From positions 24,552,001 through 24,616,000 of the forward strand of contig CM022665.1 in NCBI GenBank assembly GCA_012295275.1: a stretch of DNA of 64,000 nt, written 5' to 3'. The notes under the pieces are model-generated. The model was not told where the DNA came from. It was given only the letters and a program-made list of their open reading frames with translations, and did not search any database. This DNA is from Chrysomallon squamiferum (taxonomy: Eukaryota; Animalia; Mollusca). Positions 12,601 to 15,600 of the stretch are shown here, piece by piece (position 1 is the stretch's first letter; every line of letters starts with the position of its first letter). The position numbers were made by a program, and so were the translations under genes.

Positions 12601-15600
12601 GTTTTTATATATGAATCTCAGAACATAGTAATTTACATTGTACAAGATAGCATGAAAACAAAACATTTAACACAGAAATTTGAAACAAAACAAAAAACAA
12701 ACAAAAAACTCAATCTCATTTCACTGAACATTACAGAATTAGTAAGTTTCAGGATGATTTTTAAAACTACTTACAAAAACTGGTTGGATAATTATATAAG
12801 AGAACAGCTTTTAACGTTAACTTAATGTTGAATTTATTCTGTGAAGAATAATGTCACAATGCTCATAGTTTGAGTTATCCTCACACTTTGAAAGAAAAAA
12901 GTTTTTATTTCTTCAGCTTTTATTGTTACATGCTCATCCTTTATATGGAAATGGTGGAACTATTTTTGCAAAAATATTTTTTAGTCATTTTTTTAGTCAT
13001 TCATTGATTCATTATTACTGTTGTTGTCATTATCATTATTATTTTACTTTACGTTTATTAATAGAGGCAGATAGGTAATAGAATTATTAATCAGTGATAT
13101 ATCAATATATAAACCTGATCCCAAAATTATTGACCAGTTCCATATAAAAGACTAGTCATGATAGATAAAAGAGAAGTGGTTTAGGTATATTTGTCTCTGC
13201 TGATAGCAACAGCACTTTCTTCCAGACATATAATCCACAGTGATTCATGGCCTAATTGAAAGGTTCAGACAATCTGAAAACAATGTCTCTGTTATGATTG
13301 CTCATATATGAGTTAGCAACAGTCATCTCTGACATTTATAAATTACTCTCATGATATAAACAGTAACTGTATTTCATAACAGTTACTCAAATTTTGCAAA
13401 TAATTTGTATAGTTTCTGTAAATGTTAAAAATATACAGGCATTTTAGGATGCATTCACTGTAGATGTCAATATATTTACTAAAATATAATTTCAATTACT
13501 ATTTTTAAAGTTGAATCATAATACAAAATCATTAATAAAAAGGTTAGAAAAGGACAAATCCATAAATTCTGAGAGACAAATTTAAAAATAGCAATAATAA
13601 TTGTGATGGCTTCATTCTAACAGGTTTCAGAAGATCTTGAAATAAACAGTCAGTAGTTTTTGAGGTCAAAACTTTTATTGGGAAAAAATATATATTAGAA
13701 TTTTATGAACCATTTCAATAATTTTATTGAAACAGACAAAAAGGTTTAAATAAAAAAAGAAAATTGGTTACTTTAATTTTGGTTTACACTACCTAAAGCA
13801 TGGCCTGCTGAGCCCCCTTTGACCTTTTTAGTATCCTTTTTACCTTTCTTAACATCTGTAACAAAGTTGTCAAATCTACCTATTTAACAAGTTTTATTTT
13901 TGGATGAAAAAATATCTGGAGTGAATGAATTAATTTAATGACTGGAAGCATATATTAGGACAACCATTTGGCTGTTTTGTATAATGATGATGATGACGTG
14001 AAACAGAAAGTAAAAATCTGACAAATCTACATTTTTACTAAGTGTCACTTTTATTTATATTCATTCATTCAACTACTTTTGGAAAATGAATATAAAAATA
14101 TAGAAAAATACTTCAAACCACTTTAATCTTAATATCCATCAAATGTGAAGTTTATAACAACTAACATTCTTTAGATTAGTTTTGTGAATTAGCAGTCAAG
14201 GATCTTTATATGCACTTTCCCATAATCATGAAACATCATACTTCCACATTTGATATACCAGTAGTGGAGTACTGTTTGGAAATGGAAAAAATTCAATAGG
14301 AGCTCCGAGAAGTATTGATCCATCAATGAATCATACCTTGAGCCAGTGCTCTAGATCTTCTGAAGATCACTAATAATTTCTTATCAGGATTAGTACTTTT
14401 ATTATTTATTCATTATTATACATTAATCTAATGTAGTATACAAATAAGGACAGTATATTGTACAAATGCTATATTATGATCAACAAGATAAATTAAATAT
14501 GTGCAGCATAATTTAAGAAGCAATAGGCTTTAGCAAAATATTCAAACTATCTTGGCAAAAGAAAACTGATGAATGAAAGGAATATAGGTAAAAATCTCCC
14601 CAGTAAGCAAATAAACATTCATCTCTACCAGAAAGGTTATTAACAGGAAGCTAAGTTAGAAATATCATAAACAAGTAATTCAGCTAGAAATATTATGAAC
14701 AAATAACTAAGCTAGAAAGGTCGTGAACAAACAGTTAAGCTAGAAATATGAACAAATATGTAACTAGAAAGATCATGAATAAATAATAAAGCTTAGAATG
14801 TCATGTGTTAAATAACTAATCTAGGAAAATCATGAATAAGTATCTAAGCTAGAAAGAGTATGAACAACTAACTAAGGAAGACAATTTTAATAACCCTAAA
14901 GAAAGAATGAAAGTAAACACACCAAGTGATTTCATTCTCACAGTTCCAGAACACACAGGTACCACTGTCCACAGAGTTTGTTGGAAGGATGCTATAACCA
15001 TAGAACCACTTCCAATGTGCTGTAATAATAATAAAATTAAAATTAATTTTTAAATAAATAAATAATAATAATAATAATAATAATAATAATGACAACAATA
15101 ACAGTAACAGTAATATTAAAATTAACAGGAAAGCAAATATAAAACCTTTTTATAAAGCATGCTATATAGTATAAAATATATTAAATATAAACATAAATTA
15201 ATCCGTCTGTTCTAGATTTCTTTTTCTTTTTTTAATCTGTTTATAAATTTATTTATTTTGATTTATTATTATTTTAATTTAAAAAAAAATATATGTATGG
15301 CTTTTCATTTTTTTTAATCTCACAAATAATATTATTTTTAAATCTTACCAGGTATCGTTCAGAAGAGACACTGACTAAAATGAGATCATCACCCACTCGA
15401 ACCTTCTCACCTTCTGACCGCTGTTTAGATGCTGGATGGATTGTCCACCAGCAGGATTCACCTAAAAAATTAAATGAGTGTTTAACAACATCCCATTATA
15501 AAAGTACATTGGCTGCTGGTGTAATACAGAGGTAATAATATGAATGTTAATAAATGATTACTATTTAAATTAAAATGTCTGTATAACATATCTGCTGTTT

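What the first reader, a model, noticed from the sequence alone, without database searches (positions are those of the whole stretch)
13793..13855. Lysine-rich 63-nt cassette exon at the RyR domain A/B junction
Seen: intron 7 (phase 1) contains a segment bounded by ctttgttacag and GTAGTG that is 3n in length, phase 1-1 and stop-free. It encodes [21 protein letters not shown] (7 Lys in 11 residues). Exons 7 and 8 already join into a normal RyR sequence, so this exon would be optional. Known: this position corresponds to the boundary of N-terminal domains A and B, in the region that forms the cytoplasmic gating ring and a disease hot spot in vertebrate RyRs. Inference: a spliced-in polybasic loop, present four times per tetramer, could change gating, anion/phosphoinositide or partner binding, or localisation.
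Basis: partly seen in the sequence, partly recalled or inferred. Interest (0 to 1): 0.72.

Follow-up and report, generated by a model that had tools for sequence, protein, structure and literature searches.

The report
Possible lysine-rich ryanodine receptor exon
In the calcium-release channel (ryanodine receptor) gene of a likely mollusc, a 63-base stretch inside an intron has the signals of an optional exon that would add a short, positively charged loop between two regulatory domains; the RNA available shows it only being skipped, so it is likely at most a rarely used variant.

Summary
The sequence observation holds. On the minus strand, 13855-13793 is a 63-nt, phase 1-1, stop-free AG..GT segment in intron 7 of a mollusc-like RyR gene (77% identical to scallop RyR). 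It would add 21 residues (7 Lys, net +5) at the end of the NTD-A/NTD-B linker (RyR1 position about 212). It is the best-scoring of 204 pseudo-exons in introns 2-25, but only modestly above chance (11 of 200 simulations; about 0.3 expected from control DNA). Its donor is weak, and two stronger donors lie inside it: +12 (in frame, a 12-nt microexon) and +32 (frameshift). No data show inclusion. In 2 of 4 RNA runs the contigs cross the junction, and both join exon 7 directly to exon 8; none of the 4 covers the segment. None of 262 RyR proteins spanning the linker has an insert, and no homologue was found in 25 intron-7 stretches from other animals, none of them close relatives. Verdict: about even odds between a minor, lineage-restricted cassette exon and a chance pseudo-exon. 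The gating and lipid-binding ideas are untested.

The parts
13793..13855 (-). Candidate 63-nt cassette exon, phase 1-1; would add 21 residues (7 Lys, 2 Asp); inclusion not observed
   Evidence: no RNA cover in 4 of 4 runs
13844..13855 (-). Candidate 12-nt in-frame microexon from the same acceptor, using the stronger internal donor AAG|GTAAAA (score 9.0 against 3.2); would add 4 residues
13824..13855 (-). 32-nt form via the internal donor AAG|GTCAAA (score 6.5); frameshift with a stop 44 codons on
13856..13875 (-). Acceptor region: score 9.2 (6th of 747 intronic AGs), AG-free zone only 20 nt, short pyrimidine tract
14337..14369 (-).
   Evidence: no RNA cover
14923..15019 (-). RyR exon 7 (last strand of NTD-A and the linker); weakest donor of the 25 exons
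12148..12241 (-). RyR exon 8 (start of NTD-B); weakest acceptor of the 25 exons
12242..14922 (-). Intron 7, phase 1, 2681 nt (second longest of introns 2-25; median 438); removed whole in RNA contigs of runs X1 and X2
541..37402 (-). Host gene: ryanodine receptor; exon 1 at about 37402-37343, exons 2-26 from 22454 to 541 give an open frame of 1017 residues, 77% identical to scallop RyR; the gene continues past the window edge

Best explanation
The main mRNA of this ryanodine receptor gene splices exon 7 directly to exon 8, and the 63-nt segment is likely a minor, lineage-restricted cassette exon that would be included only in some tissue or stage. Shown: the splice signals, the reading frame, the skipping junction and the position. 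Inferred: a fairly good acceptor paired with a weak distal donor would make skipping the default. When included, the 21 residues would lengthen the coil of about 10 residues that tethers beta-trefoil A to beta-trefoil B to about 31 residues, leave both folds intact and add a flexible loop of net charge +5. The likeliest effect is a small change in A/B coupling or a docking site, in mixed tetramers; this step is untested.
For: Ranks first of 204 frame-preserving, stop-free 30-150 nt segments in 18.9 kb of intron (17.5; the next independent locus scores 11.2), about level with the weakest real exon, exon 7. Its GC of 41% matches the exons (44%) rather than the introns (24%); 53 of 2489 intron windows reach that level. 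It is the only locus among 203 candidates with 6 or more Lys in 11 residues. The Lys-Lys units are spaced 9, 12 and 9 nt apart, in frame (read from the sequence). The insertion point ends a coil (residues 210-219, pLDDT under 50 at 213-215) in a model of a nematode homologue. Optional exons are common in single-gene invertebrate RyRs (PMC8301844 and PMC6026295, passages; PMC7644089, abstract), and optional N-terminal inserts occur at other junctions in lepidopteran database isoforms.
Against: No inclusion was seen. In 2 of 4 RNA runs the contigs cross the junction and both skip the segment; 0 of 4 cover it. None of 262 RyR proteins has an insert here, including 13 scallop sequences from 4 species, 10 of them isoforms of one species. 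No similar exon was found in 17 full and 8 partial intron-7 sequences from other animals (best score 27 against 108 for self). The donor is weak (3.2) and two stronger donors lie inside the segment, whereas 23 of 25 real exons have no stronger internal donor. The AG-free zone is shorter than in 24 of 25 real exons. The chance level is 5-27%, depending on the null.
Confidence: 0.46

Rival explanations
1. Chance pseudo-exon: an A-rich then GC-rich patch of intron 7 that happens to lie between an AG and a GT in frame. It is never, or only noisily, spliced in and has no protein role; A-rich DNA reads as lysine.
For: All RNA evidence shows skipping. No insert in 262 RyR proteins, and none has a linker longer than 23 residues from W to D. 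No homologue in other intron-7 sequences. Control DNA gave equal or better scores 3 times in 183.7 kb-phase, and Markov simulations in 11 of 200 runs. The donor is weak and has stronger internal competitors.
Against: It stands 6 points above the next independent candidate in the gene and has exon-like GC. The RNA test is shallow, comes from one study and uses contigs. No close relative was available for a conservation test.
Confidence: 0.42
2. The acceptor at 13855 is real, but it pairs mainly with the stronger donor 12 nt downstream. That gives a 4-residue microexon, as in neural microexon programmes, and the 63-nt form is absent or minor.
For: The acceptor and the +12 donor sum to 18.2, the top of 230 microexon candidates (next 11.5) and within the range of the real exons (7.5-23.6); 0 such scores in 48.7 kb of control DNA. 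The form keeps the frame.
Against: Markov simulations reached 18.15 in 70 of 300 runs. No inclusion in RNA. There is no TGC in the 40 nt before the acceptor; that such motifs mark SRRM3/4-type microexons is recalled, not read here.
Confidence: 0.12

Closest known systems
Alternative splicing of single-gene invertebrate RyRs: the insect mutually exclusive exons in SPRY2 and other optional exons (PMC8301844 and PMC6026295, passages read); C. elegans unc-68 tissue-specific exons in DR2 (PMC7644089, abstract read)
   Same: An invertebrate RyR gene with a short in-frame optional segment that would diversify the channel by tissue or stage.
   Different: Those exons are shown by cDNA or RT-PCR, and the sites named in the passages I read lie in SPRY2, near the repeat domains, at the calmodulin site or in DR2. 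This one lies at the NTD-A/B linker, is polybasic and has no transcript support.
Optional N-terminal inserts in lepidopteran database RyR isoforms: 5-6 residues at the exon 3/4 junction in 19 of the proteins listed, and 24 residues at the exon 6/7 junction in P0087
   Same: Short optional inserts within the N-terminal beta-trefoil region of an invertebrate RyR.
   Different: Different junctions, inside domain A rather than at the A/B linker; unrelated sequence; present in annotated isoforms.
Vertebrate RyR2 NTD-A mobile helix and the exon 3 deletion (PMC9168041 and PMC7570887, passages read)
   Same: Exon-sized changes in the RyR N-terminal domain can be tolerated structurally and are linked to altered channel behaviour or disease.
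   Different: Those changes are inside domain A and have been studied structurally; this would be an insertion at the A/B tether in a mollusc-like gene.
IP3R1 SI cassette in the N-terminal beta-trefoil region (recalled; not read or tested here)
   Same: A short optional exon in the homologous N-terminal region of the sister channel family.
   Different: As recalled, it is an acidic loop within the IP3-binding core and not at the A/B linker; RyRs do not keep IP3 binding (PMC9168041, passage).

Membership tests
Ryanodine receptor gene (host) | Exons encode RyR N-terminal domains collinear with known RyRs in one open frame | tested here: met
   1017 residues without a stop; 77% to scallop RyR, 62% to an insect RyR, 54% to a vertebrate RyR2; exons 7 and 8 match RyR1 and RyR2 structures
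Alternative cassette exon | AG and GT boundaries with scores in the range of the gene's real exons | tested here: met
   Acceptor 9.2 (real 1.1-15.7), donor 3.2 (real -0.4 to 11.6, low end)
Alternative cassette exon | Frame-preserving and stop-free in the phase of the host intron | tested here: met
   63 nt, phase 1-1, no stop in the next 300 codons
Alternative cassette exon | Skipping isoform exists | tested here: met
   Junction 14923-12241 in runs X1 and X2
Alternative cassette exon | Inclusion isoform exists in RNA | tested here: inconclusive
   No cover in 4 of 4 runs, but only 2 cross the junction, at depth 5.9 and 12.4; one study, contigs only
Alternative cassette exon | Conserved in close relatives under coding constraint | not testable with these tools
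   No genome of this organism or of a close relative is held; nearest proteins are 77% identical
Alternative cassette exon | Conserved across molluscs or lophotrochozoans | tested here: not met
   No insert in 13 of 13 scallop proteins; no homologue in 25 intron-7 stretches; sampling of molluscs is thin
Neural microexon (12-nt form) | 3-27 nt, frame-preserving, strong splice sites | tested here: met
   12 nt, sum 18.2, top of 230
Neural microexon (12-nt form) | Neuron-specific inclusion driven by an eMIC-domain factor | not testable with these tools
   No tissue-labelled raw reads; no TGC in the 40 nt upstream (motif recalled)

The most novel reading that the evidence does not exclude
A mollusc lineage has gained a regulated splice switch at a site where no RyR examined varies upward in length. 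One acceptor with two in-frame donors would give 0, 4 or 21 extra residues, the longest a polybasic loop, in the tether between NTD-A and NTD-B, and would tune how the N-terminal gating ring couples to the pore in nerve or muscle.
Probability: 0.2. Interest if true: 0.5.

Novelty: new variant of a known kind. Interest (0 to 1): 0.22.

Why it matters
No linker longer than 23 residues (W to D) was found among 262 RyR proteins from nematodes to mammals, and this region is a hot spot for disease mutations that shift the N-terminal domains (PMC9168041, passages). A natural 21-residue basic insert there would test whether the length of the A/B tether matters for gating, and would add a new site to the known splice map of invertebrate RyRs. 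If the segment is a pseudo-exon, it matters only as an annotation caution.

Tried and rejected
RNA: 4 of the 5 runs listed were laid; the fifth, X5, the likely DNA holder, was not. Lack of cover on the segment is not proof of absence. The contigs of X3 and X4 stop before the exon 7-8 junction and say nothing about it. Only the skipping joint in X1 and X2 counts as evidence. No own genome is held. Protein searches reached only one mollusc group (scallops); full-length gastropod or cephalopod RyRs over 5000 residues were outside the lengths searched and were outranked by insects (120 of 2255 hits listed). Of 284 proteins of 150 or more residues, 22 were dropped because they do not span the linker or do not align. 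Of 56 metagenome loci, 25 held part or all of intron 7; the rest lacked the intron or did not reach it, and L038 and L051 were dropped for unclear or too short boundaries. A degenerate motif for the lysine-rich part matched 0 of 56 loci. The segment is not a repeat copy within the window (blastn). The Atlas look-up gave no result. The spliced isoforms themselves were not folded; the model is of a nematode homologue without the insert, and its domain A has low confidence. The 33-nt exon was rejected on its acceptor score, and the 66-nt form on its donor score (-1.1). Paper searches (listings only) showed no title or abstract start on mollusc RyR splicing or on an exon at the A/B linker. Subscription papers are not in the library, and no supplements were read.

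Full report
Host gene. The minus strand carries the 5' part of a ryanodine receptor gene. Exon 1 lies at about 37402-37343. Exons 2-26 (22454 to 541) give 1017 residues without a stop, 77% identical to scallop RyRs, 67% to the intronless contig L001, 62% to an insect RyR and 54% to a vertebrate RyR2. The organism is therefore likely a mollusc; this is inferred from identity, and no tree was built. No whole genome is held.

The observation. The segment 13855-13793 follows an acceptor ending CTTTGTTACAG and precedes the donor TAG|GTAGTG. It is 63 nt, sits in phase-1 intron 7 and gives the stated peptide, with 7 Lys and 2 Asp in 21 residues. The downstream frame stays open. Exons 7 and 8 alone give a linker of 23 residues from the Trp of the last domain A strand to the Asp of GGD, the length found in 187 of 262 RyR proteins.

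Is it more than chance? I scored every AG..GT, frame-preserving, stop-free segment of 30-150 nt in introns 2-25 (18.9 kb) with splice matrices from the gene's 25 exons plus a codon term. The candidate ranks first of 203 (204) at 17.5. The next independent locus scores 11.2, and the weakest real exon, exon 7, about 17.4. Its GC of 41% is exon-like; 53 of 2489 intron windows reach it. Controls temper this. Fourth-order Markov introns reached 17.4 in 11 of 200 simulations. Real control DNA gave 0 hits in 37.7 kb (wrong phases), 1 in 56.6 (antisense), 2 in 44.7 (intron 1, sense) and 0 in 44.7 (intron 1, antisense), or about 0.3 expected in 18.9 kb. The matrices rest on only 25 sites, so the scores are rough.

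The acceptor is good (9.2, 6th of 747 intronic AGs), but the 63-nt donor is weak (3.2). Two stronger donors lie inside the segment: +12 (9.0, in frame) and +32 (6.5, frameshift with a stop after 44 codons). Only 2 of 25 real exons contain a donor stronger than their own. The 12-nt form is the top of 230 microexon candidates (18.2 against 11.5 for the next), with 0 equals in 48.7 kb of control DNA but 70 of 300 in simulations. The 33-nt companion has an acceptor below all real ones.

RNA. Five runs hold the region: four RNA runs of one study and one likely DNA run. The four RNA runs were laid on 11050-15025. In X1 (depth 5.9) and X2 (depth 12.4) a contig joins 14923 to 12241, skipping 2681 nt. 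The contigs of X3 and X4 stop short of the junction. None of the four covers the 63-nt or the 33-nt segment. These are contigs, which drop rare forms, from tissues unknown to me. They show that skipping is the main form in two samples; they do not show that inclusion never occurs.

Relatives. Of 284 stored proteins of 150 or more residues, 262 span the linker. It is 23 residues long in 187, 21 in 73 vertebrate sequences, shorter in 2 and longer in none. The set is highly redundant (mostly insects and vertebrate RyR2). Molluscs are represented by 13 scallop sequences of 4 species, 10 of them isoforms of one species that vary elsewhere but not here. A metagenome scan gave 56 RyR loci; 17 hold the full phase-1 intron 7 and 8 a part of it. 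None contains a similar in-frame segment (best score 27 against 108 for self) or DNA similar to the window's intron at E 0.01. The closest of them (L050, L052; exon 8 93% identical) are still too distant for intron alignment. Deep conservation is therefore absent in this sample, and shallow conservation is untested.

Structural position. Exon 8 residue 2 aligns with RyR1 residue 214, so the split codon is RyR1 residue 212. A review sets NTD-A at 1-208 and NTD-B at 209-392 in rabbit RyR1 (PMC9168041, passages). In an AlphaFold model of a nematode homologue (P0035; mean pLDDT 67.8, domain A poorly resolved) the equivalent residue 219 ends a coil of about 10 residues after the last domain A strand, just before domain B begins. 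An insert there would likely be tolerated as a loop. Whether it faces the central vestibule, a subunit interface or solvent could not be determined. The same review states that RyR N-terminal domains do not keep the IP3-binding property, which gives no support to the phosphoinositide idea.

Mechanism. Shown: default splicing removes intron 7 whole. Inferred (0.46): in some tissue or stage the acceptor at 13855 pairs with the weak donor at 13793 and a 21-residue, net +5, Gly- and Lys-rich loop lengthens the A/B tether. Because disease mutations act through the interfaces of the N-terminal domains (PMC9168041, passages), a modest change in gating or a docking site is the likeliest effect; this is untested. 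Rivals are a chance pseudo-exon (0.42) and a 12-nt microexon from the same acceptor (0.12). These odds are my judgement.

Comparison with what is known. Alternative splicing of the single invertebrate RyR gene is well described, mostly in SPRY2, near the repeat domains and the calmodulin site in insects (PMC8301844, PMC6026295 and PMC4519896, passages) and in DR2 of C. elegans unc-68 (PMC7644089, abstract). Lepidopteran database isoforms carry optional inserts at two other N-terminal junctions. Four searches (listings only) showed nothing on mollusc RyR splicing or on this site. Earlier scan notes hold no finding at this site and describe other RyR exons (not tested here). If real, this is a new site for a known kind of event.

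Verdict. The sequence feature is real and the location is right, but exon use is unproven and every direct test available came out as skipping or absence, with limited power. Interest 0.22.

Noticed in passing
window 42056-43489 (+) and 46512-48200 (+): A neighbouring gene lies head to head with RyR. The 477-residue open frame has a weak kinase-like hit and a BEACH domain (E 1.7e-33), a layout I recall from WDR81. The 562-residue frame has no Pfam hit and may be a further exon of the same gene.
   Followed up: partly
window 14651-14876: A 28-bp minisatellite (8.2 copies, 71% matches) in intron 7, upstream of the candidate exon.
   Followed up: no
window 14923 and 12241: Intron 7 is bordered by the weakest donor and the weakest acceptor of the gene's 25 exons (leave-one-out -0.4 and 1.1). 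The split codon gives Ala where most RyRs have Gly.
   Followed up: no
L004-L010, L013, L043, L045-L047, L049: A group of closely similar RyR loci differs in intron 7: L009, L013 and L045 have a 48-58 nt phase-1 intron, and the others have none.
   Followed up: no
P0170, P0282-P0294 (scallop RyRs): Database isoforms show an alternative first exon and optional segments at alignment columns about 1066-1083 and 1388-1462. No clear match to the alternative first exon was found in the window.
   Followed up: partly
P0068-P0072, P0084-P0087: Lepidopteran isoforms carry an optional 5-6 residue insert at the exon 3/4 junction, and P0087 a 24-residue insert at the exon 6/7 junction.
   Followed up: no
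window 5588-5644 (+), 37258-37166 (-), 31843-31730 (-): Three control segments score as well as the candidate (22.9, 18.1, 19.4). I counted them as chance hits, but the two in intron 1 could be real non-coding or alternative exons.
   Followed up: no
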